Positions 35,616 to 61,499 of a stretch of DNA of 64,000 nt are shown in pieces. Each line of letters starts with the position of its first letter. Position 1 is the first letter of the stretch. Where the stretch lies: assembly GCA_964641225.1 (NCBI GenBank), contig CAZXKC010000005.1, positions 32,134-96,133 on the forward strand, read 5' to 3'. The DNA comes from an uncultured Candidatus Saccharibacteria bacterium (lineage in GTDB: Bacteria; Patescibacteriota; Minisyncoccia; UBA6257; 1-14-0-10-44-23). A program made the position numbers and the translations under genes. Under the pieces are notes generated by a model. It saw only the letters and a program-made list of their open reading frames with translations. It did no database searches and was not told the DNA's origin.

Positions 35616-36876
35616 AAAAGTACTTTTTGTTTCTTCATATGCGCCTCCTGCGATCGGAGGGCCTAATAATCTTTACTGTCTTTTGCGCGACACTACGCCA
35701 AATGAACTTGATTACACTATTCTGACAAGCTTCTACAACATCGACGCATTGTCTGCGAAAGTTGGCAACTGGTTGCCAGGAGATTATGCATTTTACGATA
35801 AGCCGTCTGCAACAAAACAGCAGGCGCAAAACCCTTTAGCTACAAAAGACGGACAGTTAGGACGTAGTGCTATTAGGAAACTAAAACACCTCATGAAGCG
35901 GACGGCATTTATTGCTACGCTTGCGGGCATTCCGGTCATTTTTTCGCAAATTCTGGCTATCTATCGTGCCGGTAAAAAAGTGTCCAATGCAAGAGGTAGC
36001 GAAATTATTATGGCATTTTCTGATTACGGACCGGCCGTCCTCGGTAGCTATTTCTTACATAAGAAAACCAAGATACCGCTTTATCTTTTTATGTTTGATA
36101 TCTATTACGGCAATCATTTTCCTTTTCCTGGCGGATTGCTTTCGCGTATTTTCGAACCCAAGCTTTTCCGGACAGCAGAAAAGATCGTGGTTACTAATGA
36201 GGGAACTAAAGAATTTTACGTAAAGAGATACGGCGCACAGATTGCTGATAAGATTTTTGTAATTCATAACGCGGCATTCGGCGGAGCATACCGAGAACTC
36301 CAAGCACCATACAATCCGAAGCCTCCTTATACTATTCTTTTTACGGGACGTATTGGTTGGCCTCAGATTGGCGCACTAAAAAATTTCGTTAAAGCAATTG
36401 AGCTAATGGATGACTCGAATATTAGACTTAAATTTTACTGTCCGAACCCGAAAGAATATGTGCAACGCATGGGTCTTGCAAGTCCGAAAATCGAGTGGTC
36501 AGTGGCCGCGCCGAAAGATATACCGGCGATCCAGAGTAAGGCAGATATCCTTTTCCTTCCTCTTTCTTGGGGTACCAAGGGCCAAATGATTATTGATACT
36601 GCTACTCCGGGGAAGTTGACTGACTATCTTGCTGCTGGTAGGCCGATTCTGATCCACGCTCCTGCGAGCTCCACGCTTGTTGCGTATGCTAAAAAACGGC
36701 AGTTTGCTCGCGTTGTTGACGATGAAAACATTGAGCACCTCCAAGTCGCCATCAGGGACATTTTAAGTGATGTCCCGCAGAGTCAAAAATTTATCAATAA
36801 TGCCCTAAAGACGTTCGATGAAAATCATGAAGCTGGTACTAATGCTCGGAAATTCCTTACGCTTTTTAAGCGTTAG
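35608..36876 (+). CDS. Glycosyltransferase-like protein (GT4/GT-B fold, divergent)
   Basis: Start taken at the ATG at 35608 (MNKKVLFVSSYAPP), overlapping the upstream stop (ATGAATAA). GT-B-like C-terminal domain. Confidence 0.55.
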   Translation: MNKKVLFVSSYAPPAIGGPNNLYCLLRDTTPNELDYTILTSFYNIDALSAKVGNWLPGDYAFYDKPSATKQQAQNPLATKDGQLGRSAIRKLKHLMKRTAFIATLAGIPVIFSQILAIYRAGKKVSNARGSEIIMAFSDYGPAVLGSYFLHKKTKIPLYLFMFDIYYGNHFPFPGGLLSRIFEPKLFRTAEKIVVTNEGTKEFYVKRYGAQIADKIFVIHNAAFGGAYRELQAPYNPKPPYTILFTGRIGWPQIGALKNFVKAIELMDDSNIRLKFYCPNPKEYVQRMGLASPKIEWSVAAPKDIPAIQSKADILFLPLSWGTKGQMIIDTATPGKLTDYLAAGRPILIHAPASSTLVAYAKKRQFARVVDDENIEHLQVAIRDILSDVPQSQKFINNALKTFDENHEAGTNARKFLTLFKR

Positions 36877-38107
36877 GCTGCGCTAAAGAATCAAGAATAC
36901 GTGCAAATTTTTTTCCGTATGTTTTAGCGCTGAATTGTTCTATTTCCCCCTGGTTTGGGGATACGTGCAAACCAGAGTCAACGTATTGTGCATAATACTG
37001 TTCAATTGCCTTTTTGATACCTGAAATATCGTCGGGAGAGACAACAATACCCGTGTTTGTTAAACGAATTGCATCGGCGGAGGCTCCCTTAGCAGGAGTA
37101 ATACCCAGAATCGGTTTTTTTGTTAGAAAATATTCTACAAGTTTGCCAGGAAGAAAAATACTTTCTTCTTTCTCCGGCGCGTCAATAAGCAATAAAATGT
37201 CTGCGGTGAAAATTTCTCGCAGCGCCTCTTGTCGAGGTAAGCCATCAATTAACGTAATACTAGATTCTAATCGATATGTAGAAATCAATTCTTTGAATTT
37301 TCCGATTGGACCAACGAATCTTACCGCGACTTTTGTCTCAAGATCTTTTCTTTCATCAAGAAGTAAGCGTAGGGCCTTCAAAAATGGCTCAGGAGAACGT
37401 AGTCCATACAAGCTTCCCGTATAGGTTATAGTCATCTTGTTCTTATTCTCAGCGTTTCGCAGAGGAGCGCTTTCTCTTTGCAGTTGAGCAAATTCTTCCG
37501 GATCATATGAGTTCGGCATAGTAACGAACTTATTCTGAAAGTTATACTTTTTCATGGCCAGTGATTTTGTCTGGTCGGTGGTGAGGATAATTTTATCTGC
37601 CTTTTCTAGTATCTTTTGCTCGACGCGCTCATTTATTTTTTTAATAAATGGATTTTTGAATGTGATATATGGATTCTGTGTCCACAGATCCCCGAATAAC
37701 AACACGGAAGGTAATTGCGCGTATTTATTAATACGCAGTAGTGCGAGATGTGAGCTTATAGGATTCGAGCGTGATACAATTACATCAAATTTTTCATATT
37801 TCAAGGCTTTTCTTGCGGCCCGAGACGCAAAAGTCACCCAGCCTATCTCTGGGTCTGGTATTAATTTGAGACGACTTAAGCCTCGAAATAAAAGATTAGT
37901 AATAGTCCGGGTTCTATGTACTTGAGTGTTTTTTGGAATTCGTTCGGAGGTCTCCGTATCACTATTAAATCCGCGAATTTTTTCCGCGCAAATCACAGTC
38001 ACCTCCCAGCCAAAATCTGACAAATATTTAACTGAATTCAGCGCCATTGTACTTTCAATTGACCGGATGGGCGGAAAAAAGTAAGAAATAAAGAGCAGTT
38101 TCTTCAT
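36866..38107 (-). CDS. Glycosyltransferase family 4 (WbuB-like)
   Basis: N-terminal LLFISYFFPP and GT-B architecture; 413 aa. Confidence 0.75.
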   Translation of the reverse strand: MKKLLFISYFFPPIRSIESTMALNSVKYLSDFGWEVTVICAEKIRGFNSDTETSERIPKNTQVHRTRTITNLLFRGLSRLKLIPDPEIGWVTFASRAARKALKYEKFDVIVSRSNPISSHLALLRINKYAQLPSVLLFGDLWTQNPYITFKNPFIKKINERVEQKILEKADKIILTTDQTKSLAMKKYNFQNKFVTMPNSYDPEEFAQLQRESAPLRNAENKNKMTITYTGSLYGLRSPEPFLKALRLLLDERKDLETKVAVRFVGPIGKFKELISTYRLESSITLIDGLPRQEALREIFTADILLLIDAPEKEESIFLPGKLVEYFLTKKPILGITPAKGASADAIRLTNTGIVVSPDDISGIKKAIEQYYAQYVDSGLHVSPNQGEIEQFSAKTYGKKFARILDSLAQPNA

Positions 38108-38115
38108 GATGGTAT

Positions 38116-39189
38116 CTACAGCTCTTTTGTGAGAATATCGATGATGCGTGCAGCGGTCTTCCCGTCTCCAAAAGGATTATGCCAGTTTTTCTTTATTTGA
38201 AGCATTTTCTTCGTAGAACTTACAATTTTTTTGGCAGTTGCGCCGGCTAATATATTTGAGCCTACTGCTAATGTTTCGGGGCGCTCTGTATTATCACGCA
38301 ACGTAACGCAGGGCACGCGCAAGATGCATGCTTCTTCTTGTATTCCGCCGGAATCCGTAAGAACTAATTCGGCGTGAGATTCAAGCCAAAGAAACTCAAG
38401 ATAACCAACCGGGTCAATAAATTCTACGCCCTTGGGCAAGGGCAAAGAAAATGTTCGTATTCTATCTTTAGTCCGAGGGTGCAACGGGCAAAGTATCCTC
38501 ATATTGTATTCTTTACTAACTGCTTCTAACCCCGCAAGAATGCCGCTGAGCCGTTTTTTATTATCAACATTTTCGGCTCTATGAAATGTTGCTAAAAAAT
38601 AAGTTTTTTTAAAAGTTCCTTTGTGTTTTGAAAGTGGTAGATTTTGGTGCACCGCATCTACAATCGTGTTACCGACAACAAATATTGAATCGAGCGGCAT
38701 CCCCTCCTTTTTTAAGATATTTTTTGCTCCTTGTGTTGGCGTAAATAGAAAATCAGAGCAGTGGTCTGTCAAGATTCTATTTCTTTCTTCGGGCATTTCA
38801 TTAAAATAAGACCGTAGTCCTGCCTCTACGTGTCCTATTTTAATATTCAGTCGCGATGCCGCTAGAGCGCCCGCTAGCACAGTATTAGTATCGCCTTCAA
38901 CCAACACCACGGTCGGTTTTTCTTTTTTTAAAATTTTCTCGAGACCAATAAGCATTGCGGCGCTTCCCTCTGCTGGAGTTCCTCCATTCGCATGGAGATT
39001 ATATTTGGGACGCGGCAGCTTGAGTTCAGAAAAGAAAATTTTATCCAAATTTGCTGAATAATGCTGATTTGTATGAACAATAAAAAAACGTAATTGTCTT
39101 CGCTGGCATTCTCTGATGACCGGCGACATTTTAATAATTTCCGGTCTCGTTCCGACGACGATGCAAATTTTTATGTTAGCGTGCTTCAT
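38116..39189 (-). CDS. wecB: UDP-N-acetylglucosamine 2-epimerase (non-hydrolysing)
   Basis: IVVGTRPEIIKMSPV, VLVEGDTNTVLAGALAA, DSGGIQEEA; 357 aa. Confidence 0.85.
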   Translation of the reverse strand: MKHANIKICIVVGTRPEIIKMSPVIRECQRRQLRFFIVHTNQHYSANLDKIFFSELKLPRPKYNLHANGGTPAEGSAAMLIGLEKILKKEKPTVVLVEGDTNTVLAGALAASRLNIKIGHVEAGLRSYFNEMPEERNRILTDHCSDFLFTPTQGAKNILKKEGMPLDSIFVVGNTIVDAVHQNLPLSKHKGTFKKTYFLATFHRAENVDNKKRLSGILAGLEAVSKEYNMRILCPLHPRTKDRIRTFSLPLPKGVEFIDPVGYLEFLWLESHAELVLTDSGGIQEEACILRVPCVTLRDNTERPETLAVGSNILAGATAKKIVSSTKKMLQIKKNWHNPFGDGKTAARIIDILTKEL

Positions 39190-39197
39190 ACGAAAGG

Positions 39198-40370
39198 TTA
39201 CCCACGAAAGAATAGGTCTTTTTTGCTTTTATTGCCAATATCCTCTTGTATGAGTAGATCAATAAAGAACTTTGCCGCCCAATTAGGGTAAGAGAAAGGA
39301 AGATACGATCCCCAGATAGGAAAACTACCGGCGATTGCTCCTCGGATATTCTCGCTCTTAGCGCTACTGTTTTGATGATTTTTTAAGAAATCAACAACGC
39401 TCTTACTGTTGCGGTTATAGTTTCCTTCTGGATATAGCTGGCTAAGTTCGCGCCACACAAGCGCTGTTTGCGCCAGGCCCGTAAGACACATGGATGTTCC
39501 TGCTGCTGCCCAATCAGCGGCATAGACATCAAAAAGCATTTTTTTATCATGCAGCTCTGATAATTTATCAGCGGTTTTTTTCGCCGCTAATATATATTTT
39601 TCTTCTTTAAAGATGCGCCCACCCTCCAGTAAACCTTGGACTGTATATGCTATGGTGTGTAGGCCTGATTTTTTATCAGCAAAAAATCCACTATTCTCAA
39701 ACCAGCCGTTTTCTTTCTGTTGTCCTAACACCCATTCTAAATTTTTAACAGCGTAATTTTTGTATGTTATATCGCTAGTCAGCAAATATGTTTCTGCTAA
39801 TGCCCATGCGACTCGCGAATAATATGTGTGCGGAAGATTGCCAAATGCATGAATAATCCAAGAACCATCGGATTCTTGAATTGAGCATAACCAATCACTT
39901 GCTTTTTTGAGAGCTCGGAGATATTCCGCTTGTTCAGTAAATTTATATAGGCCTATAAGCCCGAATATAATCTGCCCAGTATCGAAAACATACGGCGTTT
40001 TTGTTTTAAGACCCGGGAAAGAACCATCGGTTGCCTGCAAAGCTAAAAGCCACTGCCCAGATTTTGTGCAGGCTTCGATAATTTCATCCTTTCGATATTC
40101 AGTGTATCGCGAGACATTAAGCAGCGTCGAGATAAGATAGCCGGTTGTTTCGGGGTACGGGGCATCCCAACCTCTTTTTAATGAATACGAAGCAGAAAAA
40201 CCCTTTTTACCCGTAGCCGCAAACGATCTCAAGAGCCAATCAATACTTGCGCTTAATATCTGTTCACCATTTTGAGTAGCTGCTTTATTTTTATTGCCTA
40301 ACACCCACAGCCATTCATAGATGCTCTGAGGGGTAAACATGTGTCGCAGTAAAGATAATCCACGTTCCAT
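39198..40370 (-). CDS. Alpha/alpha-toroid repeat protein with QW-like motifs (squalene cyclase/prenyltransferase-like fold), function unknown
   Basis: Repeated Q-x2-D/N-G-S-W/F motifs (QATDGSFP, QESDGSWI, QKENGWFE); 390 aa. Confidence 0.45.
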   Translation of the reverse strand: MERGLSLLRHMFTPQSIYEWLWVLGNKNKAATQNGEQILSASIDWLLRSFAATGKKGFSASYSLKRGWDAPYPETTGYLISTLLNVSRYTEYRKDEIIEACTKSGQWLLALQATDGSFPGLKTKTPYVFDTGQIIFGLIGLYKFTEQAEYLRALKKASDWLCSIQESDGSWIIHAFGNLPHTYYSRVAWALAETYLLTSDITYKNYAVKNLEWVLGQQKENGWFENSGFFADKKSGLHTIAYTVQGLLEGGRIFKEEKYILAAKKTADKLSELHDKKMLFDVYAADWAAAGTSMCLTGLAQTALVWRELSQLYPEGNYNRNSKSVVDFLKNHQNSSAKSENIRGAIAGSFPIWGSYLPFSYPNWAAKFFIDLLIQEDIGNKSKKDLFFRG

Positions 40371-40371
40371 A

Positions 40372-41115
40372 TCATTTAGTAGCAGACCAAACCACGTAAA
40401 AATCTAAAAATGGAAATACCGTATGCAGCACCAAAGAAACAAAGCTGTGTAAGCCGAGTAAGAATTTTTTAAGAAAAGAACGTTTTTTGATATCTGGTTG
40501 AAAACGCAAAAAAGTGATTTTGGAAGTTGAAAAGTGCCTTTTTAAAGCTGCATTTAACTGCCACGGGATAAAATATTTTTCTTTGAAGGGAAAATCTCTT
40601 GGATACATCCATCTATTTGTTAGCTCATTAAATTTTTTCCACAGATACGTGGGAATAAAATACACGTGATGCAATGAAAGGATATTTTTATCTATTAACA
40701 CGAAAGTTCCTCGTTTTTTTAAGACTCTAGCCATTTCCCTTAGAGCTGATTCTGCGTCGGGAATATGCTCCAGCACTTCAATGCAAAGTACATAATCGAA
40801 GTAATCATCGGTAAATGGTAAAGAGGCTGCATCCGCTTGTATAAACTGGATGTCTTTATTAATCACTTTAGCTTCGCGTACCAATTCACTGGCTGGCTCA
40901 ACTCCGACGACTTCAAATCCCTTATCTTCTAATTTACGCGTAAATGATCCTCTTCCGCATCCTACATCTAATATTTTTTTGTTTTTATTAGGTTCTCCAA
41001 GAAATTCTAAAACTTTTTTTAATTCAAAATTAGAATCATCTATGGATGAGGTTACGGCCCGAAGACCCTCGGGCGCATTAAATCGTTCAATTATTTTATT
41101 TTTTAACTCCTCCAT
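40372..41115 (-). CDS. Class I SAM-dependent methyltransferase
   Basis: Motif I ILDVGCGRGSF, followed by motif II/III spacing. Confidence 0.8.
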   Translation of the reverse strand: MEELKNKIIERFNAPEGLRAVTSSIDDSNFELKKVLEFLGEPNKNKKILDVGCGRGSFTRKLEDKGFEVVGVEPASELVREAKVINKDIQFIQADAASLPFTDDYFDYVLCIEVLEHIPDAESALREMARVLKKRGTFVLIDKNILSLHHVYFIPTYLWKKFNELTNRWMYPRDFPFKEKYFIPWQLNAALKRHFSTSKITFLRFQPDIKKRSFLKKFLLGLHSFVSLVLHTVFPFLDFYVVWSATK

Positions 41116-41121
41116 ACCAGA

Positions 41122-41892
41122 CTATGGTATTTGCAAAAACTGATTTACCCGATCTTTAGGATTAAAAAAGTTAGGATCTAAACTGTTCATATCAGTCCAC
41201 TTCCAATTTTTTTTCGGCACGCGCCAGTCCTCACCAAATAGTGCCACAAGATATTCTTCTGCCGGCGTAGGAACGGGAAACTGCATTCCATAAAACGTTA
41301 ATGGCGTAAGATGTTCTACTAGCCGTTTTGGGATCATCAGCGCGTATTCAGCCTGCCCAAGGCCATAGCAAATTCCGAAAAACATCCGCCGAAGGGTTGG
41401 CATCATAAATCGTGGAATGCTGTGATATAGGGCTTTTTCGAAAGGATGGATGCCGTGGTGATAACTGCCATACAGCATTCTGTCGGCAATGCGATAAAAA
41501 TGCTTTGCCATGAATTCAAGTTTTGGTTTACTTCGTAGACAAAAAGGTGACCAGATTTTATCGCCCGCTGTACGGTAAAACATTATAGAAACAGCTAAAT
41601 TCTCTTTTTCCATCCCGAGATATGCCGCGAAGTCGGTCACATCGATTCTCCACCCTTCTTGCGCAAGCTCACGAAGTACCCTGAAGACTTTTGGGGCCTC
41701 TTCTAGCGTAGTTGAAAAATCAACGTCGTTATCCCACGCTATAACTTTACCTTCACGCACAGCCCCCAGAAGTGTGCCGGTCTCTAGCCAATAACGGACG
41801 CCGTGTCTCTCTAGCGCCTCCTTTACCATTTTCATATATGGGACCCAGCTTTCATCGCCGGCCCCCTTCCCGATGATATTGTTTTGACTCAT
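41122..41892 (-). CDS. licD: LicD-family (fukutin-like) phosphotransferase
   Basis: YWLETGTLLGAVREGKVIAWDNDVDF matches the LicD nucleotidyltransferase-fold signature (LxxGTLLGAVR...D.D.D). Confidence 0.8.
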   Translation of the reverse strand: MSQNNIIGKGAGDESWVPYMKMVKEALERHGVRYWLETGTLLGAVREGKVIAWDNDVDFSTTLEEAPKVFRVLRELAQEGWRIDVTDFAAYLGMEKENLAVSIMFYRTAGDKIWSPFCLRSKPKLEFMAKHFYRIADRMLYGSYHHGIHPFEKALYHSIPRFMMPTLRRMFFGICYGLGQAEYALMIPKRLVEHLTPLTFYGMQFPVPTPAEEYLVALFGEDWRVPKKNWKWTDMNSLDPNFFNPKDRVNQFLQIP

Positions 41893-41900
41893 GAATCTGT

Positions 41901-42551
41901 TTAAGTAAACTTGCTGTCAATAATGCGGCCTGCGATTTCAGCAATATACTCTGGATTTTTTGCAATGGCTGTTTCTTCCGCCAGACAGATGTAGTCTCCA
42001 CCTAATTGTTTTGTTGCGATAACATCGTGCACCTCTGAAAGTGCCGGCTCATTATTGCTTCCATGAAGCATGCTAATCAGAAACTCTGAGGCGACAATAA
42101 CTTTTTTCCCATTACGATGAGCTGCTTCTATGATTTTTTTTACGGCATGTGGAACATTTACGATCCCGATTGCGGTGGCTAAGTCGCGACGATCAATTAA
42201 AAGTATGTCGGCCGCTTTAGCAATCTCCTCGATGTTGTTGTAACCCTCAAGCGTTTCAATCTTGGCGCAGGTGGGATAATCGTAAATTAAGTCTTTGGCA
42301 GAAGCTACATAGCTAATTGCGATATAGCTTATGCCTATTTCTTTCGCAAAATCAACAAGTTCTTTATCAGAGTAGTTGTTGGTTCTCATTTTTCTGCGAC
42401 CATGCGGGATATCAAGCAGCGTCAAGATATGCCTGTAGGGCTGCAAATTCCCCTTTATTTGATACATCGTACCAAAAGCTCCATTCGCTCGTGCGATGGC
42501 AATATTTTTTAAAAAAGGTGTCAGGGGGCTTATTGTTGCTGCAATTTCCAT
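41901..42551 (-). CDS. Truncated pyruvate-kinase-like barrel domain protein (PEP-utilising), 216 aa
   Basis: ILLIDRRDLATAIGIVNVPHAVKKIIEAAHRNGKKVIVASEFLISM parallels the PK motif MVARGDLG.E....V...QK.MI..C...GKPVI.ATQMLESM. It lacks the PK N- and C-terminal domains. Confidence 0.45.
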   Translation of the reverse strand: MEIAATISPLTPFLKNIAIARANGAFGTMYQIKGNLQPYRHILTLLDIPHGRRKMRTNNYSDKELVDFAKEIGISYIAISYVASAKDLIYDYPTCAKIETLEGYNNIEEIAKAADILLIDRRDLATAIGIVNVPHAVKKIIEAAHRNGKKVIVASEFLISMLHGSNNEPALSEVHDVIATKQLGGDYICLAEETAIAKNPEYIAEIAGRIIDSKFT

Positions 42552-43000
42552 ATATGTTCGATTATTTTACTGGTTGATGTGACATCGTGATAATCCAAAA
42601 CTTTTGCTATTCCTCCCCAGGCCTTAACAACTTCTGCCCCTGGTGGATTCTTTCCTTTTTCCCAGCCTGCGCCCGGTCCCTTAACTAGTTTATGCGGTTT
42701 TATTTTTAATAAATTTTTGTTCGGCTGAAATTCGTCTTGAAATATTACTTCATCAACAAATCCAATATTGCCAACGACAGCGGCCCTATGGGCCTGAGGG
42801 ATAATAGGCTTGCGCTTAAATTTTGTCGCAACTTCATCTGTATAAATGCCAACAATCAACTTATCACCGAGTTTCTTTGCCTCCTTTAAAAGTTGCAAGT
42901 GGCCAACGTGAAATAAGTCAAATACTCCATACGTGTAGACAACCACTGGCCCTATTTTTTTAGCTTTCTTAACGGCCGAAATGCGCTTGGTTTTTTTCAT
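42530..43000 (-). CDS. Cytidylyltransferase, TagD/glycerol-3-phosphate cytidylyltransferase-like (HxGH nucleotidyltransferase)
   Basis: TYGVFDLFHVGHLQLL is the HIGH motif of class I-like nucleotidyltransferases; 156 aa. Confidence 0.8.
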   Translation of the reverse strand: MKKTKRISAVKKAKKIGPVVVYTYGVFDLFHVGHLQLLKEAKKLGDKLIVGIYTDEVATKFKRKPIIPQAHRAAVVGNIGFVDEVIFQDEFQPNKNLLKIKPHKLVKGPGAGWEKGKNPPGAEVVKAWGGIAKVLDYHDVTSTSKIIEHIWKLQQQ

Positions 43001-43074: not shown

Positions 43075-44292
43075 CTAAGCAAGTTCGCCGTAGGCTTGTC
43101 GCACAGCCTTACTGTCTCTAAGCGTTTCGTAATTACGAGAAGTTTTAAAGTAATCGCTCTTTATTTTTTCCATGAGATCATCGAAAACACGCTGACTTGG
43201 ACTGCCTCCTTCAGGATTGAGTATCGTTCTGTCCCATGTCGTTGACATATCCCAAGCCTCTTTCATCTTGTTATAAAGCGTTCCCTCGCCCTCCTGCCCT
43301 TCAAGCACGGTTGCTTTAGCCCAGATAGTCTCAGGGCGCTCGGTGCTTCGGCGAGCTATCACCGTTGGCGTACCAACAATAAGTCCCTCCTCCTGTACCG
43401 TTCCACTGTCTGAAACAATAAGTCGCGCTTCTTTCTCGAGTCGTAGGAAGTCAAAAAAACCAAGCGGCTTTGTTTTAGTAAATGTATCGCTATTAAGTAT
43501 GCTCATGAGCCCAAATTTCTCGATATTTGCTACCGTACGCGGCATCATAGGAAAAACTATCGTCATTTTCTTTTCTTGAGCAAATTTTACAATATCAGTT
43601 AACTTATTTTTCAATATTTCCGCATTCGAAATATTCTCTTCGCGATGAAGACCCATGAGGATGAATTTTTTACTTTCTAGTTTAAGATCCTTAAGGACAC
43701 CTGAGGCATCTACGCGAGGCATCCACTGCTCTACCGCATCCATGATAATATTTCCGATGCAAAGTACTCGGAAATCCGCTATGCCTTCGGCGACTAGTAG
43801 CTCCTTATATCGTGGTAGATAGCTATAGAGTGCGTCAGAAAGATGATCAATCACAATTCGACATTTTTCCTCCGGCATTCGCCAATCGAAACTGCGTCCT
43901 CCTGCCTCAAGATGGATAACTGGGATACCGTACCGCGCAACAATTACCGATGAAAGGACGGTATTTGTGTCTCCGAGATACATTACAGCATCAGGTTTTA
44001 CTTTTTCCAGCATATCGTATACGCGTTCATCGAGAAGGGCTGTCTGCAAAGCATAATTGCTTGCTCCTCGTTCTTTTAACGTTAGTCCTATACCCAAGTC
44101 AATATCTGGTTTGCGAATATTAAGGTCTTTTATAAAATTTCCAAATAGTTCCGGATCATAATGCTGTCCGGAATGAACAAGAATATGTTCGATAGTATCC
44201 TTACCTTTTTCATCTAACAGCTCAATAAGCTTAAACATTCGTATATAGTCTGGGCGAATTCCTAATAAGGTCACTAACTTGAATTTTTTCAT
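43075..44292 (-). CDS. UDP-N-acetylglucosamine 2-epimerase family protein (second copy, NeuC/WecB-like)
   Basis: LGIRPDYIRM, YLGDTNTVLSSVIVA, DSGTVQEEG; 405 aa. Confidence 0.75.
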   Translation of the reverse strand: MKKFKLVTLLGIRPDYIRMFKLIELLDEKGKDTIEHILVHSGQHYDPELFGNFIKDLNIRKPDIDLGIGLTLKERGASNYALQTALLDERVYDMLEKVKPDAVMYLGDTNTVLSSVIVARYGIPVIHLEAGGRSFDWRMPEEKCRIVIDHLSDALYSYLPRYKELLVAEGIADFRVLCIGNIIMDAVEQWMPRVDASGVLKDLKLESKKFILMGLHREENISNAEILKNKLTDIVKFAQEKKMTIVFPMMPRTVANIEKFGLMSILNSDTFTKTKPLGFFDFLRLEKEARLIVSDSGTVQEEGLIVGTPTVIARRSTERPETIWAKATVLEGQEGEGTLYNKMKEAWDMSTTWDRTILNPEGGSPSQRVFDDLMEKIKSDYFKTSRNYETLRDSKAVRQAYGELA

Positions 44293-44339: not shown

Positions 44340-44368
44340 TTGACAAAAGAGTGTTTCGGAGGTATAAT
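44340..44368 (+). promoter_or_regulatory. Consensus sigma70 promoter TTGACA-17nt-TATAAT driving the high-GC DUF218-like gene; 10-bp palindrome TTGCGCGCAA immediately upstream
   Basis: Exact -35 (44340-44345) and -10 (44363-44368) hexamers with a 17-nt spacer. AGGAGGG RBS sits 7 nt before the ATG at 44448. Confidence 0.55.
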
Positions 44369-44447
44369 ACTATCCTCTACGGAAGCTGCGATACTGATCG
44401 CATGCATGACCCGTGGAAAGAGAAAATAGGTAGCAGGAGGGTGCGGA

Positions 44448-45137
44448 ATGCCGATTGGACCGGACATCAACAAAGACCCCGACCCGCGTGACGCAGGGGC
44501 CGAGGTCATGGCGTACTGCATGTGGCCGGACAAGATCCGGAGCATGCGCCTACAGCCCGACGTCATCGTCGTCTACACGGGCGACGGGCGTCGGCTCGCC
44601 ACCGCCGCCATCCGCCGCGCTCGGGAGTACCCGAACATCCCCGTCTTCATCGTCGGGCCCGACAGCCTGATGGCGAGCGAGCTGGACGGCCAGATGAACG
44701 CCGAACACCTCAAGGCCGAGATGGTGGGGCATGGAATCGCGGCCGGCCGGATCATCACCGATTCGAGCCCGCAGAGCATCTACACCCACGGCCAGGCCAA
44801 CCAGGCGGCCGTGCGCTTCCGGGAGGAAACCTGGGCCACCATGCTGCTGATCACCAGTCAGCACCATGCGTACCGGGCGTTCATGATCACCCTGGGCGTC
44901 TTCAGCCGGGAAGGCCTGGCCGACCGGGTCGTCATCGTGCCAGACTCCGTCTACGAATTCGGTTTCGGCGAGCACCCGGCGGAATGGAGCGAGGAGTGGC
45001 GACGCCACACTCCCTGGGTCTGTCTCGTTCGGGACGGGATTCCAAAGGTCAGAAGCGGGCAGGAGAAGCACCCGCAGAACTTCGCGCAGAGCGACGTCGC
45101 ACAGCAGTACGTCAGACGCATCACCGCCAAGCTGTAA
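44448..45137 (+). CDS. High-GC (~65%) DUF218/YdcF-like family protein; foreign cassette
   Basis: 229 aa. The conserved DUF218 core is (V)IVVYTGDG...IPVFIVGPDS. It is followed by terminator AAGAGGAGCGG...CCGCTCCTCTT + TTTTTT (45148-45212). Confidence 0.55.
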   Translation: MPIGPDINKDPDPRDAGAEVMAYCMWPDKIRSMRLQPDVIVVYTGDGRRLATAAIRRAREYPNIPVFIVGPDSLMASELDGQMNAEHLKAEMVGHGIAAGRIITDSSPQSIYTHGQANQAAVRFREETWATMLLITSQHHAYRAFMITLGVFSREGLADRVVIVPDSVYEFGFGEHPAEWSEEWRRHTPWVCLVRDGIPKVRSGQEKHPQNFAQSDVAQQYVRRITAKL

Positions 45138-45224
45138 CAGGGGTATGCGTCGGATGGCAGCACAAGAGGAGCGGAAAGTTACGTGAAGTTTACACGTACG
45201 CCGCTCCTCTTGCCTTTTTAATAA

Positions 45225-45253
45225 TTGACTTTTGTTTTTAATAATGCTATAAT
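45225..45253 (+). promoter_or_regulatory. Second consensus-type promoter TTGACT-17nt-TATAAT upstream of the HIT-like ORF
   Basis: -35 at 45225-45230, -10 at 45248-45253. Confidence 0.5.
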
Positions 45254-45441
45254 AGCACTCCGTCAAGTAGATCAGGATTTCCTATTTCACTAACAAGGGA
45301 GATTGTCTCATCGGCACGAAATGGACGTATCGTACGCCTGCCACTCAGGCGGCCTACGACGCAGCACGAGCCTCCGGCACACCGGGAACCGATCCGTTCG
45401 GTGACTGGGCGGAGAGATCCCTCCGATCATTCACCTACTGG

Positions 45442-45681
45442 GTGATCGTCCCGAACAAGTACCCGATGGACGAGATCGCCGCGACGAACCACCTCTTGAT
45501 CCCGAAGCGACCATTCTCGACCGAGGACGAGATGACGCCGGAGGAGCAGCAGGAACTGCGTGAGATCAAGCAGGTGCTGGCCCACGAGCGCGAGTACGAC
45601 TTCATCCTCGAGAACTTTCCCGTCCGACGATCGGTGATGCTGCGGTGGCACCTGCACCTAGTGACCGCCAAGGACACCTGA
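45442..45681 (+). CDS. High-GC HIT-like (histidine-triad-like) domain protein; 5' boundary uncertain (reading frame is open back to 45271 without an ATG/GTG)
   Basis: NHLLIPKRPFSTEDEMTPEEQQEL resembles the HIT xHxLVIPKxH...L..EE region. C-terminal RWHLHLV resembles a degenerate HxHxHxx triad. The track start is GTG at 45442. Confidence 0.4.
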   Translation: MIVPNKYPMDEIAATNHLLIPKRPFSTEDEMTPEEQQELREIKQVLAHEREYDFILENFPVRRSVMLRWHLHLVTAKDT

Positions 45682-45732
45682 TCGCTTCCAGCGAGTTCGC
45701 GCCCCGACCGCAAGGTCGGGGCGCCTTCTCTT

Positions 45733-57693: not shown

Positions 57694-59136
57694 ATGAAGT
57701 CTTCAATAAAAGAACATCAGAGCAGTGCTGCTGCTTTTTTGTTACATGGCGGGGCACGATCCCTCCTGCTAGTTATCGGCGATAGTATTTCCTACTATGC
57801 TGCTCTTATTTTAACGCTTGTCGTGCGCTATGGCGCTGAAAGTTTTCATGGCGATGTTTTTTTCGTTCATCGCTATGCATTCACGATCGGGTTAGTCATC
57901 TGGCTGACTGTGTTTTACATCGGCGGATTATATGACCGACAGATTGTCGTACGAAGCCTCCTTGATCGTCGATTTTTTTCCCTTGTTGCGATTGGAGGGA
58001 TTGTTTTGATCGTGATGTTTTATTTCTCAACCTCTCTGGGAATTACGCCGAAGATTACCTTATTTATTTTTATTGGCATGTATGCCGTGATTGGGTATGC
58101 ATGGCGCATGACCTGCAACTCCGTAATTCGCTCAGCAGCCGGCCGCGGATCTATTCGACTGATGATTATTGGATCTTCAGTTGCAGCCGATGAAGTCGTA
58201 ACTGCTATAGAAACTAACACCTCATTTGGATACACCCTTGCACATTGGCTTAAAGATGGCTTACAGGCATACGCAGATCCAAGCAGTTTTTTAGAAAAAG
58301 TAAGGCAACACCAGATCGATGTAATCGTAATCCCGCAAAACTTAGAACATGACCCGGGCGCAGTTCGTATTCTTTACTCTGCGCTGATGAGCGGAACATC
58401 AATCGTAACGTTACCTGATTTTTATGAACGAATTTTTGAAAAAGTATCACTTTCAATTCTAGACGAGACGTGGCTCATTCGAAATTTGGCCGATAGACGA
58501 CCGCGTTACCGAGTCATACGACGCATCGCAGAGCCCATAGTAGGAGCCTTGGTCTTGGCTATAGCAAGTCCGCTACTCGTCTTTGCTGCAGCACTCATCT
58601 GGCTTACCTCGCGAGGGTCTATATTGTACCGTCAAACACGAGTTGGTTATGATGGAAAAAAATTCACGCTCTACAAGTTTAGAAGCATGTACGCTCATAA
58701 GGAAAAAAATCCTGATGCGGACCAAAGCTCTCCGACCTGGTCTTCGGGCTCACATGATCCGCGCATAACACCAATTGGAAGATTTTTACGAGCAACCCAT
58801 ATTGATGAGTTGCCTCAGTTTATCAACATTGTTCGCGGAGAGATGTCATTTGTCGGACCGCGTCCGGAACGACCTGAATTTACCGTTGACCTAGAAAATC
58901 AAATTCCCTATTACACATTGCGATATTTAGTCCGGCCAGGAATTGCGGGGTGGGCTCAGCTGAATTATCCCTACGGTGCAAGCACTAGCGACGCATATCA
59001 AAAACTCCAGTATGATATTTACTACATCAAGCGCAGATCAGTGTGGCTCGATGCAACTATCATTCTTAAAACTATTAAGCGGATTTTTGTGCCCGCAGAA
59101 CATCCGCACAGCACCGAGGCTCGCCGCTATGGGTAA
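57694..59136 (+). CDS. Undecaprenyl-phosphate sugar phosphotransferase (WbaP/WcaJ-type initiating glycosyltransferase)
   Basis: N-terminal TM block plus C-terminal bacterial sugar transferase domain (LYRQTRVGYDGKKFTLYKFRSM...DELPQFINIVRGEMSFVGPRPERPEF). Confidence 0.85.
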   Translation: MKSSIKEHQSSAAAFLLHGGARSLLLVIGDSISYYAALILTLVVRYGAESFHGDVFFVHRYAFTIGLVIWLTVFYIGGLYDRQIVVRSLLDRRFFSLVAIGGIVLIVMFYFSTSLGITPKITLFIFIGMYAVIGYAWRMTCNSVIRSAAGRGSIRLMIIGSSVAADEVVTAIETNTSFGYTLAHWLKDGLQAYADPSSFLEKVRQHQIDVIVIPQNLEHDPGAVRILYSALMSGTSIVTLPDFYERIFEKVSLSILDETWLIRNLADRRPRYRVIRRIAEPIVGALVLAIASPLLVFAAALIWLTSRGSILYRQTRVGYDGKKFTLYKFRSMYAHKEKNPDADQSSPTWSSGSHDPRITPIGRFLRATHIDELPQFINIVRGEMSFVGPRPERPEFTVDLENQIPYYTLRYLVRPGIAGWAQLNYPYGASTSDAYQKLQYDIYYIKRRSVWLDATIILKTIKRIFVPAEHPHSTEARRYG

Positions 59137-60040
59137 AAAAATAATCGTAACAGGTGGAGCTGGATTTATAGGCTCGCATATCGTCGATGCATATATTGCC
59201 GCTGGTCATTCGGTGGCAATTATTGATAATCTTTCCACGGGATCAAAAGCTAACCTTAACCCAAAGGCGCGATTTTATGAGGCAGACATTCTTGACGCTC
59301 AAGAACTCAACCGGATATTCGCCCTAGAGAAGCCAGAAGTTGTAAATCATCAGGCAGCCATTACATCAGTCCTGCATTCGGATGTTGCCAAGGTCAATGA
59401 AGAAGGAACAGCGGCAGTCTTAGTAGCCGCAGCTCCATATATAAAAAAGTTTATTTTTGCCTCCAGTGGAGGAGCCCTTAATGCGAATCCAAAAAAAATA
59501 CCGACCACTGAAGATGAGACGCCAACACCGATTTCGGAATATGGCCGTTCGAAATTAGCCGGCGAAAACTTCGTAAAAGAAGCGGCGAAAAAATACAATT
59601 TTTTGTACACTATTTTACGGCCCTCAAATGTCTATGGTCCTCGCCAAAACTCTCACGGCGAAGGCGGAATTGTAGCCATCTTCACGCATCTCGCGTTAGA
59701 GAATAAACAACCGACTATATATCAGAAAGACGCCACACGTGATTATGTCTATGTCAGCGATGTTGCGCGAGCAAACCTACTTGTACTCGATGATACTCGT
59801 AACGAAACATACAATCTAGCAACAGCAATCGAAACGCCAAATCAAGCTGTATTCGAAAAAGTTGCCGCTGTGTTTAACTGGAATCAAAGACCTATCTATA
59901 AAAACGCGCGCCCTGGAGAGGTCTTTCGCAGTTGCCTGTCCCCCGTCAAGGCCGCAGATATGCTTACATGGCAACCCGCAGTTCCCTTCTTGAAGGGAAT
60001 AACGCTCATCAAGTCGCACCTACATGATACGCATGCTTAA
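59129..60040 (+). CDS. NAD-dependent epimerase/dehydratase (UDP-sugar 4-epimerase-like)
   Basis: Start at ATG 59129 (MGKKIIVTGGAGFIGSH), overlapping the upstream stop (ATGGGTAA). YGRSK catalytic motif. Confidence 0.8.
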   Translation: MGKKIIVTGGAGFIGSHIVDAYIAAGHSVAIIDNLSTGSKANLNPKARFYEADILDAQELNRIFALEKPEVVNHQAAITSVLHSDVAKVNEEGTAAVLVAAAPYIKKFIFASSGGALNANPKKIPTTEDETPTPISEYGRSKLAGENFVKEAAKKYNFLYTILRPSNVYGPRQNSHGEGGIVAIFTHLALENKQPTIYQKDATRDYVYVSDVARANLLVLDDTRNETYNLATAIETPNQAVFEKVAAVFNWNQRPIYKNARPGEVFRSCLSPVKAADMLTWQPAVPFLKGITLIKSHLHDTHA

Positions 60041-61499
60041 AAACCTCCTGTTTGGCAATAGAACAACTGGTCAGACGCTACTTAAAAATACCTCGTGGCT
60101 TTTTATTGGTGAAATTTTCGGTAGACTGATTCGCTTTTGGATTGTTGTCTACGCTGCTCGTGTTTTAGGCGCGGCTGAATACGGTATTTTTTCATACGCT
60201 CTAACTATTGCCGCTTTTGCGACTATTTTTGCCGATATCGGCATTTCAGCATTATTAACGCGAGAAACCAGTAAGCACCCTGAGCTGCGTCAGCGCTATT
60301 TCAACTCAATGCTTGCGGCAAAATTCTTACTTATAGTACTGGTCGCCATAGGCATATACACAATTACACCTCTCATTACCAACCTATCTGGCGCACTTAC
60401 CCTTATCCCGCTGGTGATCGCAATGTTTACGTTTGATAGTTTGCGAGAATTTGGTTTTGGTATGCACCGAAGCCTGGAAAAAATGGAGCTTGAGGCAATT
60501 ACGAAAATTGTCATGAATGCACTGATAACCGGCCTTGGCTTTGCGGCGCTATATTATGAAAAAAGCGCCGGTTCGCTTTCCCTTGGGTATGCCGTCGGAG
60601 CTGCAGTAGGCTGCATTATCACCGCATGGCTCCTTCGAAAATTCATTCGAGGCCTTGCACAGGGCGTAGACATACGCCTGATCTGGCCCATGCTTAAGTT
60701 AGCCTGGCCGCTGGGCCTGTTGCAGCTTCTTGGCGCGATCATGATTAATACCGATATGGTCTTGCTCGGCTGGTGGCGGTCTCCGGTTGAGTTAGGATAC
60801 TACGGAGCGGCTCAAAAAATTATTTTATTGTTATACGTTGCACCTGCACTGTTAGCCTCGGCAGTGTTCCCTGTGTTTTCGCGTCTTGCCCATGTCGCGA
60901 ATGATCGCTTCCGATCACTATTTGAAAAAAGTATTGCCGCCGCGGAATTACTGGCTATGCCTATGGCGGTCGGTGGAATTGTGCTTGCACCTCAAATCAT
61001 AGATTTGCTATTTGGCGCTGAATATAGACCGGGCAGCACAACACTTGGCTTACTCATGTTCACCTTGATTATTGTTTTTCCGAGCACAATCTTTTCAAAT
61101 GCCTTATTTGCATACAATAAACAAAGCCGATTTATGTGGTACGTCGGCCTTGGAGTGATTTCTAATGTTATTCTTGACATACTTTTAATTCCTTCATATG
61201 GCATCGAAGGATCGGCAATTGCAACGATTATCTCTCAAATTTTGGCAAATATTTTTATATGGCGCGAAATGAAAAAAACAAATACCTTTACCCTTGCCCC
61301 GCACCTTCTACGCATTATTCCCGCAAGCATCGGCATGGGGATCAGCGCGTACCTATTGGCGCTCACTGAAATCCCAACATTAATGGTGATCGCTTGTGCC
61401 GCTATTGTTTACGTTGGAATCCTTGTGATACTCAAAGAACCTTTTTTAAGAGATCTGCGCACTATCCTGAGACCCGATCCTGCCACGCCGAACGCATAA
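60024..61499 (+). CDS. wzx: Oligosaccharide flippase (Wzx, MOP superfamily), second copy
   Basis: 491 aa, multi-TM, same N-terminal family pattern as the 33059 gene (NTSWLFIGEIFGRLIRFWIVVYAARVLG). Confidence 0.8.
   Translation: MIRMLKNLLFGNRTTGQTLLKNTSWLFIGEIFGRLIRFWIVVYAARVLGAAEYGIFSYALTIAAFATIFADIGISALLTRETSKHPELRQRYFNSMLAAKFLLIVLVAIGIYTITPLITNLSGALTLIPLVIAMFTFDSLREFGFGMHRSLEKMELEAITKIVMNALITGLGFAALYYEKSAGSLSLGYAVGAAVGCIITAWLLRKFIRGLAQGVDIRLIWPMLKLAWPLGLLQLLGAIMINTDMVLLGWWRSPVELGYYGAAQKIILLLYVAPALLASAVFPVFSRLAHVANDRFRSLFEKSIAAAELLAMPMAVGGIVLAPQIIDLLFGAEYRPGSTTLGLLMFTLIIVFPSTIFSNALFAYNKQSRFMWYVGLGVISNVILDILLIPSYGIEGSAIATIISQILANIFIWREMKKTNTFTLAPHLLRIIPASIGMGISAYLLALTEIPTLMVIACAAIVYVGILVILKEPFLRDLRTILRPDPATPNA

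What the first reader, a model, noticed from the sequence alone, without database searches (positions are those of the whole stretch)
41122..43000. LicD transferase + TagD-like cytidylyltransferase + truncated pyruvate-kinase barrel: candidate CDP-activated phospho-substituent pathway
LicD/fukutin-type enzymes transfer a phospho-alcohol (phosphocholine, ribitol-P, glycerol-P) from a CDP-activated donor. The adjacent HxGH cytidylyltransferase would make that donor. The third gene is a 216-aa protein retaining only the PK catalytic barrel motif, with no N- or C-domains. This is unusual and suggests a PEP- or ATP-dependent kinase/phosphomutase step feeding the cytidylyltransferase. Together with the SAM methyltransferase and QW-toroid protein upstream, this may decorate the surface glycan with a non-standard phosphodiester substituent.
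Basis: inference. Interest (0 to 1): 0.55.

Follow-up and report, generated by a model that had tools for sequence, protein, structure and literature searches.

The report
Lid-less pyruvate-kinase barrel partnering a cytidylyltransferase
A tiny bacterium's surface-sugar operon pairs a stripped-down pyruvate-kinase barrel with a nucleotide-activating enzyme and a LicD transferase, and this undescribed pairing recurs in over a thousand related bacteria and two phage contigs, probably to attach a phosphate-linked group to a surface glycan.

Summary
The three ORFs are real and intact on the minus strand. They are an HxGH nucleotidyltransferase (42530-43000), a 216-aa pyruvate-kinase (PK) A-domain barrel lacking the B (lid) and C domains (41901-42551), and a LicD transferase (41122-41892). 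They sit in a tightly packed eight-gene glycan operon.

Its close family is rare, with 13 proteins found. In every context recovered the barrel is adjacent to or fused with a nucleotidyltransferase, or sits next to one. A shorter sister family of at least 1,768 proteins across candidate-phyla-radiation bacteria shows the same pairing. The accompanying transferase is LicD, TagF-like or CDP-alcohol phosphotransferase, which all use CDP-alcohol donors. The cassette also occurs on two phage contigs.

The pathway-level reading is well supported. The barrel's chemistry is inferred. I favour a PEP-dependent kinase that makes the phospho-substrate. CTP regeneration and direct cytidylylation of a C3-acid phosphate remain live rivals. 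The substituent is unknown.

The parts
42530..43000 (-). HxGH-type nucleotidyltransferase (CT), 156 aa. It has the FHVGH motif and a C-terminal TSTS motif.
   Evidence: PF01467 scores 64.3 bits. TIGR02199 rfaE_dom_II scores 108 bits and TIGR01518 TagD 60 bits, both below cut-off. PDB matches are ECT 3elb (4e-21), HldC 5x9q, TagD 1coz and the Fom1 CyTase domain 5x3d. Homologues at about 60% identity in other CPR lineages also sit beside a mini barrel.
41901..42551 (-). Lid-less pyruvate-kinase A-domain barrel, 216 aa, with no B or C domain. Its start overlaps the CT gene by 22 nt.
41122..41892 (-). LicD-family phospho-substituent transferase, 256 aa.
   Evidence: PF04991 scores 52.8 bits. It matches the FKRP catalytic domain 6kaj at 6.7e-9. 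The GxxLGAxR and DxDxD motifs and the C-terminal E..Y..G..W..P motif are invariant across window, L002, L003, L004 and L022.
40372..41115 (-). Class I SAM-dependent methyltransferase, 247 aa.
   Evidence: Methyltransf_11 scores 93.6 bits. It is adjacent to LicD in L002 and L003. It matches the N-terminal part of the 735-aa MT::toroid fusion of L018 at E 3e-9.
39198..40370 (-). (alpha/alpha)6-toroid-like protein, 390 aa. It is the split partner of the methyltransferase.
   Evidence: It gives weak matches to squalene-cyclase, pectate-lyase and GH127 families. It is 30% identical over 371 aa (E 5e-44) to the C-terminal half of the L018 MT::toroid fusion. Fused 704-735 aa forms occur in L012, L018 and L020.
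43075..44292 (-). WecB-like UDP-GlcNAc 2-epimerase paralogue, 405 aa. It is the first gene of the operon.
   Evidence: PF02350 scores 237.8 bits. TIGR00236 scores 210.0 against a cut-off of 210.15. It lies immediately upstream of CT in L003 and upstream of it, with two unannotated ORFs between, in L002. An Epimerase_2 gene is also near the cassette in L012, L018 and L020.
38116..39189 (-). Canonical non-hydrolysing UDP-GlcNAc 2-epimerase (WecB), 357 aa.
   Evidence: TIGR00236 scores 396.6 bits against a cut-off of 210.15.
36866..38107 (-). GT4 glycosyltransferase, 413 aa. It is the last gene of the operon.
   Evidence: Glyco_transf_4 scores 46.5 bits. A similar GT4 lies beside the cassette in L002, L003 and L018.

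Best explanation
The operon decorates a Wzx-exported surface glycan with a phosphodiester-linked substituent through a nucleotide-activated donor, most probably CDP-X.

Shown by genomic evidence:
- The HxGH nucleotidyltransferase and the lid-less PK barrel are an obligate pair.
- A CDP-alcohol-type phosphotransferase (LicD here) accompanies the pair.
- A methyltransferase plus toroid module travels with the cassette.

Inferred mechanism:
1. The barrel keeps PK's PEP, Mg2+ and phosphoryl-transfer machinery but has lost the nucleotide-covering lid. It acts as the pathway's kinase, moving the phosphoryl group of PEP onto a small, probably anionic, hydroxyl compound to give X-phosphate plus pyruvate.
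2. The nucleotidyltransferase condenses X-phosphate with CTP to give CDP-X plus PPi.
3. LicD transfers phospho-X onto a sugar hydroxyl and releases CMP.
4. The methyltransferase, guided by the glycan-binding toroid, methylates the product.

This is the familiar kinase-plus-nucleotidyltransferase logic, with a PK-derived barrel in place of the usual kinase. Known examples, recalled from my own knowledge, are LicA/LicC, HldE, PAPS synthase and CysN-CysC. X is unknown.
For: Catalytic residues:
- The residues equivalent to PK R73, N75, D113, K270, E272, D296, T328 (Ser here) and E364 are invariant or near-invariant in all 13 family members.
- The K54-x-R56-T57 motif matches the K/E117-x-R119-T120 hinge motif of PK. 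A Lys at position 117 marks K+-independent PKs (abstract of PMC4374775).

Fold:
- The model is a complete barrel with pLDDT 90.7.
- The B and C domains are absent.

Pairing with a nucleotidyltransferase:
- The barrel is adjacent to the CT in window, L002, L003 and L004, and fused to it in P0005.
- In the short sister family it is adjacent in L007, L010, L012, L018, L020 and L022, and fused in P0366.

Fusions in related barrels:
- Barrels carrying the same loop motif are fused to a GT-A nucleotidyltransferase, to ATP sulfurylase and to a CysN-like GTPase.
- In well-known proteins these are the positions a kinase occupies.

Nature of the donor:
- The partner transferases belong to three unrelated families that all use CDP-alcohol donors: LicD, Glyphos_transf and CDP-OH_P_transf.

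No alternative source of X-phosphate:
- No other kinase, dehydrogenase or PEP mutase that could supply X-phosphate lies in the cassettes or among the window's ORFs of 150 aa or more.

Indispensability:
- Small CPR genomes and two phage contigs keep the barrel together with CT and LicD, which argues it is essential rather than accessory.

Selection:
- dN/dS is 0.076.
Against: - No PK-fold enzyme is known to phosphorylate an alcohol from PEP, as far as I know.
- The basic loop that replaces the lid would also suit a nucleotide diphosphate as acceptor.
- The short sister family lacks the last strand and helix, including the E364 region, so the two families may not share one mechanism.
- AF2 of the natural fusion gives no confident inter-domain geometry (pTM 0.62, disordered linker), so nothing structural ties the two active sites together.
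- The nucleotidyltransferase is more HldE-like than TagD-like and lacks the Arg of the RTxGISTT motif. It could use ATP rather than CTP.
- Methyltransferases at the different loci are only 19-25% identical outside the close group. Their co-occurrence may partly reflect how common they are in glycan loci.
- In L021 the short barrel sits with a sulfotransferase, an APS kinase and a CysQ-like protein, and has no HxGH transferase.
Confidence: 0.4

Rival explanations
1. The barrel is a dedicated miniature pyruvate kinase that keeps PK's native chemistry (NDP + PEP -> NTP + pyruvate). It regenerates CTP, or ATP or GTP in the related fusions, for the attached nucleotidyltransferase. X-phosphate would then be an ordinary metabolite such as glycerol-3-phosphate, which makes this a teichoic-acid-like TagD/TagF or LicD pathway with an energy-coupling helper.
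For: - All PK catalytic residues are retained.
- Related barrels are fused to ATP sulfurylase, a CysN-like GTPase and a GT-A nucleotidyltransferase. One ATP-sulfurylase fusion (P0116) still has the full barrel with its B domain.
- PKs are documented to make all NTPs (bioRxiv 10.1101/2024.06.25.600556; PMC11980595, listed).
- The basic loop could hold nucleotide phosphates.
- In L021 the barrel lies beside a sulfotransferase and an APS kinase.
Against: - The B domain contributes nucleotide contacts in PK (Asp153, Lys184 and Gly185 in SpPYK), and it is missing here.
- CDP is the poorest NDP substrate of the PK tested.
- I expect LicD, TagF and CDP-alcohol transferases to release CMP rather than CDP, so the coupling would be indirect.
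- CTP is available in any cell. A mere helper is unlikely to be kept next to the CT in over a thousand reduced genomes and in two phage contigs.
Confidence: 0.2
2. A C3-acid phosphate from lower glycolysis (PEP, 2-phosphoglycerate or phospholactate) is itself the substrate that becomes cytidylylated. The barrel is the subunit that binds, presents or interconverts it, and LicD then installs a phospho-enolpyruvyl or phospho-glyceryl group. The methyltransferase might esterify or otherwise modify that group.
For: - The PEP and oxalate-type ligand residues are conserved in both barrel families.
- There is chemical precedent. CDP-glycerate is made by CpgD (PMC12275187). PEP is guanylylated to EPPG in F420 biosynthesis (my own knowledge).
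- No kinase substrate has to be invoked.
- Gene overlap of 22-44 nt and gene fusion fit a two-subunit enzyme.
Against: - Retention of K270, the T328 equivalent and E364, which serve phosphoryl transfer and enolate protonation in PK, would be unnecessary for simple binding.
- CpgD and CofC need no barrel partner.
- AF2 gives no confident CT-barrel interface.
- This reading does not explain the fusions to ATP sulfurylase and the CysN-like GTPase.
Confidence: 0.12
3. The barrel phosphorylates the nucleotide-activated product itself. The target would be the 3'-OH of CDP-X or APS, giving a PAPS-like donor. This would parallel APS kinase and Cj1415 of the Campylobacter O-methyl-phosphoramidate pathway.
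For: - The barrel occupies the position of APS kinase in the fusions with ATP sulfurylase and the CysN-like GTPase.
- Sulfotransferases lie nearby in L001 and L021.
- A methyltransferase accompanies the cassette, as in the MeOPN pathway (my own knowledge of that pathway).
Against: - As far as I know, LicD, TagF-like and CDP-alcohol phosphotransferases use ordinary CDP-alcohols.
- L021 already encodes a canonical APS kinase.
- There is no precedent for PEP-dependent 3'-phosphorylation.
Confidence: 0.07
4. The barrel is a PEP-mutase-like enzyme that makes a C-P bond, so the cassette is a phosphonate-tailoring pathway in disguise.
For: - About 60% of true PEP mutases are fused to PF12804 or PF01467, the same two nucleotidyltransferase families found fused to these barrels. 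LicD-like transferases also occur in those clusters (PMC6697681).
- The CT matches the Fom1 CyTase domain 5x3d at 8e-12.
Against: - No family member has the EDKxxxxxNS motif.
- No PF13714 match appears at E <= 0.01.
- Neither the cassettes nor the window encode a phosphonopyruvate decarboxylase or any other enzyme to pull the unfavourable equilibrium.
Confidence: 0.04
5. The PK-like ORF is a decaying fragment of a housekeeping pyruvate kinase, and the gene adjacency is accidental.
For: The protein is short compared with a canonical PK and scores far below the NCBIfam PK equivalog cut-off (83.8 against 306.4).
Against: - The ORFs are intact in 13 homologues at 48-62% identity, with a shared start.
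- dN/dS is 0.076.
- The model is a confident complete barrel.
- Flanking DNA is fully occupied by the CT and LicD genes, so there is no room for B or C domain remnants.
- Adjacency and fusion recur across lineages.
Confidence: 0.01

Closest known systems
Pyruvate kinase (EC 2.7.1.40), A domain
   Different: The B (lid) domain and the C (effector and tetramer) domain are absent. ARGDLG is replaced by DRRDLA and LSGETA by LAEETA. Scores fall far below all PK equivalog cut-offs. The gene lies in a glycan operon beside a nucleotidyltransferase, not in a glycolytic context.
CDP-alcohol decoration pathways: lic1 (LicA/LicC/LicD phosphocholine), TagD/TagF teichoic acid, ISPD/FKTN/FKRP ribitol-phosphate
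   Same: A nucleotidyltransferase plus a LicD-type or TagF-type phosphotransferase sit in a glycan locus. The LicD catalytic motifs are intact, and FKRP is the best PDB match.
   Different: No LicA-like kinase or TarJ-like reductase is present. A PK-derived barrel is the constant third partner instead. The transferase is neither a LicC-type enzyme nor a TagD equivalog. The substituent is unknown.
HldE (RfaE): kinase fused to an HxGH nucleotidyltransferase
   Same: The nucleotidyltransferase is most similar over its full length to HldE domain II (108 bits, residues 10-150; PDB 5x9q). In P0005 and P0366 it is fused to a second catalytic domain.
   Different: The fused partner is a PK barrel rather than a ribokinase-fold kinase. 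The score is below the HldE cut-off. The neighbouring transferases point to a phospho-alcohol donor, not to ADP-heptose.
PEP mutase-nucleotidyltransferase fusions of phosphonate tailoring (Fom1, PntC systems; PMC6697681)
   Same: A PEP-binding barrel of the same superfamily is fused or adjacent to PF01467 or PF12804 nucleotidyltransferases, with LicD-like transferases nearby.
   Different: The barrel is PK-type and lacks the mutase motif. No phosphonopyruvate decarboxylase is present.
CpgD / CDP-glycerate (Caulobacter; PMC12275187), and PEP guanylylation by CofC/FbiD in F420 biosynthesis
   Same: Both are precedents for nucleotide activation of a C3-acid phosphate from lower glycolysis followed by transfer of the phospho-acid.
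   Different: Those nucleotidyltransferases have the GT-A/MobA-like fold and work without a barrel partner (the F420 part is my own knowledge).

Membership tests
Pyruvate kinase (TIGR01064 / PF00224) | A-domain (beta/alpha)8 barrel | tested here: met
Pyruvate kinase (TIGR01064 / PF00224) | Catalytic residues R73, K270, E272, D296, T328 and E364 (rabbit numbering, recalled from my own knowledge) | tested here: met
   R21, K97, E99, D123, S155 (Thr to Ser) and E193 are invariant in the family (R21 in the 12 members that cover it). G295 is replaced by Arg and S362 by Ala.
Pyruvate kinase (TIGR01064 / PF00224) | B (lid) domain inserted after strand 3 | tested here: not met
   About 100 residues are missing compared with PykF, and a 12-residue basic loop stands in their place.
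Pyruvate kinase (TIGR01064 / PF00224) | C domain, and a whole-protein score above the equivalog cut-off | tested here: not met
   The protein ends at the last barrel helix. TIGR01064 scores 83.8 bits against a cut-off of 306.4.
Pyruvate kinase (TIGR01064 / PF00224) | ADP + PEP -> ATP + pyruvate activity | not testable with these tools
   This needs an enzyme assay.
LicD family (PF04991) | Pfam score above gathering, and the nucleotidyltransferase-fold motifs GxxLGAxR and DxD | tested here: met
   The score is 52.8 bits against 22.6. G39, L42, G43, A44, R46, D54, D56 and D58 are invariant in five homologues. FKRP 6kaj matches at 6.7e-9.
LicD family (PF04991) | Transfer of a phospho-alcohol from a CDP-linked donor | not testable with these tools
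   This is inferred only from family membership and from the adjacent nucleotidyltransferase.
TagD, glycerol-3-phosphate cytidylyltransferase (TIGR01518) | HxGH motif | tested here: met
   FHVGH lies at residues 30-34.
TagD, glycerol-3-phosphate cytidylyltransferase (TIGR01518) | Equivalog score, and the RTxGISTT motif (motif recalled from my own knowledge) | tested here: not met
   The score is 59.9 bits against a cut-off of 165.4, and only residues 21-96 align. The motif region reads HDVTSTS and has no Arg.
HldE domain II, heptose-1-phosphate adenylyltransferase (TIGR02199) | Equivalog-domain score | tested here: not met
   The score is 108.3 bits against a cut-off of 181.5, although the alignment covers residues 10-150.
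PEP mutase (PF13714 with the EDKxxxxxNS motif) | Pfam match and mutase motif | tested here: not met
HpcH/HpaI aldolase / citrate lyase beta (PF03328) | Pfam match, and best structural neighbour | tested here: not met

The most novel reading that the evidence does not exclude
Lid-less PK barrels would be a previously unrecognised class of PEP-dependent small-molecule kinases. In this reading they have replaced conventional kinases in nucleotide-activated donor pathways (CDP-X, and possibly PAPS-type donors) across candidate-phyla-radiation bacteria and their phages. The cassette in this window would install a new, probably methylated, phosphodiester substituent on the cell surface.
Probability: 0.3. 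Interest if true: 0.8.

Novelty: new variant of a known kind. Interest (0 to 1): 0.62.

Why it matters
Candidate-phyla-radiation bacteria are tiny and mostly uncultured, and they depend on attaching to host cells. Their surface chemistry is almost unknown.

A cassette found in well over a thousand of their genomes, and carried by two phage contigs, is a strong candidate for a widespread surface modification.

It would also show a new use of the pyruvate-kinase fold. A lid-less barrel working with a nucleotidyltransferase could tie surface decoration directly to PEP, the main high-energy metabolite of a fermentative cell.

The hypothesis is directly testable with two small soluble proteins.

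Tried and rejected
- **IMG/VR scan with the close family (A1):** it found nothing. The phage instances came from a JGI contig (L004) and from scanning with the short family (L022).
- **tblastn of the barrel against deposited phages:** it gave only 32-34% partial matches over residues 61-210, most on unannotated records. I judged these uninformative.
- **AF2 of the natural CT::barrel fusion P0005:** this was meant to test whether the transferase caps the barrel in place of the lid. Both domains were confident, but pTM was 0.62 and the linker was disordered. There is therefore no evidence for or against a composite active site.
- **Orthology of the methyltransferases across loci:** identity is only 19-25% outside the close group. 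I do not treat the methyltransferase as a proven core component, although the MT::toroid fusion does link those two genes.
- no hit below E = 2. The search did not detect even the barrel ORF, so it was too insensitive to exclude PK remnants; no second PK appears in the Pfam scans of the window's ORFs.
- **Literature searches:** none returned a description of this pairing. Terms covered a PK-like barrel with a cytidylyltransferase, LicD or ATP sulfurylase, truncated PK, and the cell envelope of CPR bacteria.
- **Pseudogene, PEP mutase and HpcH aldolase readings:** all three were rejected on the evidence given under the rivals and the membership tests.
Full report
**1. What is there**

Eight ORFs are packed head to tail on the minus strand between 44292 and 36866. 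In order they are:
- a WecB-like epimerase (43075-44292);
- an HxGH nucleotidyltransferase, here called CT (42530-43000);
- a 216-aa PK-like protein (41901-42551);
- LicD (41122-41892);
- a class I methyltransferase (40372-41115);
- an (alpha/alpha)6-toroid-like protein (39198-40370);
- a canonical WecB (38116-39189);
- a GT4 glycosyltransferase (36866-38107).

CT and the PK-like gene overlap by 22 nt, and the next three gaps are 8, 6 and 1 nt. All three genes in the finding pass their Pfam gathering scores. The surroundings are a glycan locus, with a Wzx-type flippase, further glycosyltransferases, and RmlD-, RmlC- and dehydratase-like genes. The rest of the window looks like a small-genome bacterium, with type IV pilus genes, LigA, a GatA-type amidase, GroEL and tRNAs. 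An identical PK-like protein is on record in NCBI on a 97-kb contig. The closest named relative comes from a Patescibacteria metagenome-assembled genome.

**2. The PK-like protein is a complete, lid-less PK barrel and not a fragment**

AlphaFold2 on a 13-sequence alignment gives pLDDT 90.7 and eight strand-helix units.

Structural comparison gives this ranking:

| Search | Match | Score |
|---|---|---|
| Foldseek vs PDB | top 50 hits, all pyruvate kinases | TM-score on the query 0.80-0.87 |

Compared with E. coli PykF, the roughly 100-residue B domain and the whole C domain are absent.

The family keeps the following residues invariant. Rabbit-muscle numbering is from my own knowledge.

| Family residue | PK equivalent |
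|---|---|
| R21, N23 | R73, N75 |
| D47 | D113 |
| K97, E99 | K270, E272 |
| D123 | D296 |
| S155 | T328 |
| E193 | E364 |

The loop that replaces the lid reads D-I-P-x-G-R-x-K-x-R-T. Its K54-x-R56-T57 resembles the K/E117-x-R119-T120 hinge motif of PK. That equivalence is my inference, because MAFFT placed the loop differently. A Lys at position 117 characterises K+-independent PKs (abstract of PMC4374775).

Several motifs differ from PK: DRRDLA replaces ARGDLG, ASEFL replaces ATQML and LAEETA replaces LSGETA. No member has the PEP-mutase motif EDKxxxxxNS.

Orthologues in L002 and L003 give dN/dS of 0.076, and more than half of the conserved codons differ synonymously from the window gene. 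The flanks are fully occupied by the CT and LicD genes. The pseudogene reading is therefore excluded.

**3. The other two genes**

The CT has the HxGH motif (FHVGH). Over its full length it is closest to HldE domain II (108 bits; PDB 5x9q). Its N-terminal half resembles ECT, TagD and CCT, and the Fom1 CyTase domain also matches (5x3d, 8e-12). It reaches no equivalog cut-off. Cytidine specificity is therefore inferred from its partner enzymes and is not shown.

LicD carries the GxxLGAxR and DxDxD motifs and a conserved C-terminal block. All are invariant in five homologues. Its best solved relative is the FKRP catalytic domain.

**4. Evidence from elsewhere**

*The close family is rare.* Only 13 close homologues of the barrel turned up among 5.8 billion proteins. 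Their contexts all point the same way:
- L002 and L003 repeat the window's gene order: Epimerase_2, CT, barrel, LicD, MT, toroid, GT4. L002 has two unannotated ORFs between Epimerase_2 and CT, and L003 has two extra methyltransferase genes before GT4.
- P0005, from a Patescibacteria genome, is a CT::barrel fusion. A methyltransferase, a sulfotransferase and a capsule-synthesis gene lie upstream.
- L004 is a phage contig with terminase, portal and Mu-F-like genes. It carries MT, a short LicD, CT, the barrel and a double GT2.

Profile comparison shows this ORF is a shorter, divergent PK-like barrel (97.6% probability, E 3e-12). It has RINVAW, LDYPQGRSK, PKIET and DKEDL motifs. This sister family has at least 1,768 members spread across CPR lineages and includes a second CT::barrel fusion, P0366.

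*The neighbours are consistent.* Around the sister family they are:
- a TagF-like Glyphos_transf gene plus CT in L010, L012, L018 and L020;
- a 704-735 aa methyltransferase::toroid fusion in L012, L018 and L020.

The window's toroid protein is 30% identical over 371 residues to the C-terminal half of the L018 fusion (E 5e-44). The window's methyltransferase matches its N-terminal part.

A second viral contig, L022, has GT4, CT, barrel, a deacetylase, LicD and GT2 between a weak portal match and an SU10-type adaptor match.

*A wider profile search finds more fusions.* Searching 1.84 billion representatives found lid-less barrels carrying the same loop motif fused to three further partners:
- a GT-A-type nucleotidyltransferase (P0103);
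- ATP sulfurylase (P0104);
- a CysN-like GTPase (P0113, P0119).

P0103 sits between an ATP sulfurylase on one side and a methyltransferase plus a CDP-alcohol phosphotransferase on the other.

One short barrel, in L021, lies beside a sulfotransferase, an APS kinase, a CysQ-like gene and a true PEP-mutase cluster. It has no HxGH transferase.

**5. Interpretation**

Firm conclusions:
- CT and the barrel are an obligate pair. The support is adjacency in ten of the twelve independent contexts examined, two independent fusions and overlapping reading frames.
- The pair works with a phosphotransferase drawn from one of three unrelated families that all use CDP-alcohol donors. This supports a CDP-X donor and transfer of phospho-X to a glycan.
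- The methyltransferase and toroid are one functional module associated with the cassette.

The barrel's reaction is inferred. Retention of PK's phosphoryl-transfer and enolate-protonation residues argues that PEP acts as a phosphoryl donor, not that it is merely bound or rearranged. Loss of the lid argues that the acceptor is no longer handled as in PK.

Four observations make the kinase reading my preferred one:
- No kinase, reductase or mutase that could supply X-phosphate lies in any cassette or among the window's ORFs of 150 aa or more.
- Reduced genomes and phage contigs keep the barrel with CT and LicD.
- The CT resembles HldE domain II, whose natural partner is a kinase.
- The other fusion partners, ATP sulfurylase and CysN, are classically fused to a kinase (my own knowledge).

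I therefore prefer the model in which the barrel is the pathway's kinase, transferring phosphate from PEP to X-OH, with confidence about 0.4. I put the pathway-level claim at roughly 0.75.

The main rival is PEP-driven CTP regeneration, at 0.2. It fits the retained PK chemistry and the fusions. It fits less well with three points: the loss of the lid, my expectation that the transferases release CMP rather than CDP, and the cassette's retention in minimal genomes.

Direct cytidylylation of PEP or 2-phosphoglycerate has chemical precedent in CDP-glycerate (CpgD, PMC12275187) and stands at 0.12. Phosphorylation of the 3'-OH of the activated donor (0.07) and a mutase role (0.04) are less likely.

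AF2 of the natural fusion gave no confident interface (pTM 0.62). A composite active site is therefore neither supported nor excluded.

**6. Novelty**

Searches of the held literature found no description of a PK-derived barrel partnering a cytidylyltransferase, a LicD or a TagF-like enzyme. Source databases name these proteins 'pyruvate kinase', 'citrate lyase beta subunit' or 'hypothetical'.

The system belongs to a known kind, CDP-alcohol-type phospho-substituent decoration, but with an undescribed constant component. The window's full-barrel version is a rare branch of it. I rate it a new variant of a known kind, with interest 0.62.

Noticed in passing
window 44350-45720: A 1.35-kb island of 55-67% GC lies in a region that is otherwise about 41% GC. 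It sits between the WecB-like gene and the RmlD-like gene. It encodes a DUF218 ORF (44448-45137, + strand) and a 79-aa ORF with an HxHxH-like motif (45442-45681, + strand, no Pfam match). In the syntenic loci L002 and L003 the RmlD-like gene abuts the epimerase gene directly. The island is therefore an insertion, either a horizontal acquisition or an assembly chimera.
   Followed up: partly
L004:6464-10260 and L022:4435-8841: Two viral contigs carry the CT, mini-barrel and LicD cassette together with glycosyltransferases. In L022 it lies between a weak SU10-portal match and an SU10-adaptor match, inside the structural module. This hints at glycan modification of the host surface or of the virion by phages of CPR bacteria.
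   Followed up: partly
P0104, P0116, P0113, P0119, P0103; L015:1489-5881: Lid-less PK barrels with the same loop motif are fused to ATP sulfurylase, to a CysN-like GTPase and to a GT-A nucleotidyltransferase. P0116, by contrast, keeps the full PK barrel including the B domain. In L015 an ATP sulfurylase, the barrel::NT fusion, a methyltransferase and a CDP-alcohol phosphotransferase lie in a row. The link to sulfate activation is unexplained.
   Followed up: partly
L021:1-10594: In a Peregrinibacteria contig a short mini barrel is followed directly by a sulfotransferase. It lies next to an APS kinase, a CysQ-like phosphatase and a true PEP-mutase::NTP_transf_3 plus decarboxylase phosphonate cluster. 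This locus has no HxGH transferase.
   Followed up: no
L006:4965-5642: A Nanoarchaeota genome encodes a 225-aa barrel-only PK with canonical PK motifs (ARGDLG; 199 bits to PF00224). It sits in a housekeeping neighbourhood with a CCA-adding enzyme and a Ham1 gene. B- and C-domain-less PKs therefore also exist outside glycan loci.
   Followed up: partly
window 57694-61499: A second glycan-synthesis locus lies here. It encodes an initiating sugar transferase (Bac_transf), an epimerase/dehydratase and a second Wzx-type flippase.
   Followed up: no
window 38116-39189 and 43075-44292: Two UDP-GlcNAc 2-epimerase paralogues lie in one operon. One is canonical (397 bits). The other is divergent and scores 210.0 against the 210.15 cut-off. 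The divergent copy lies upstream of the CT gene in L002 and L003, and its substrate may differ.
   Followed up: no
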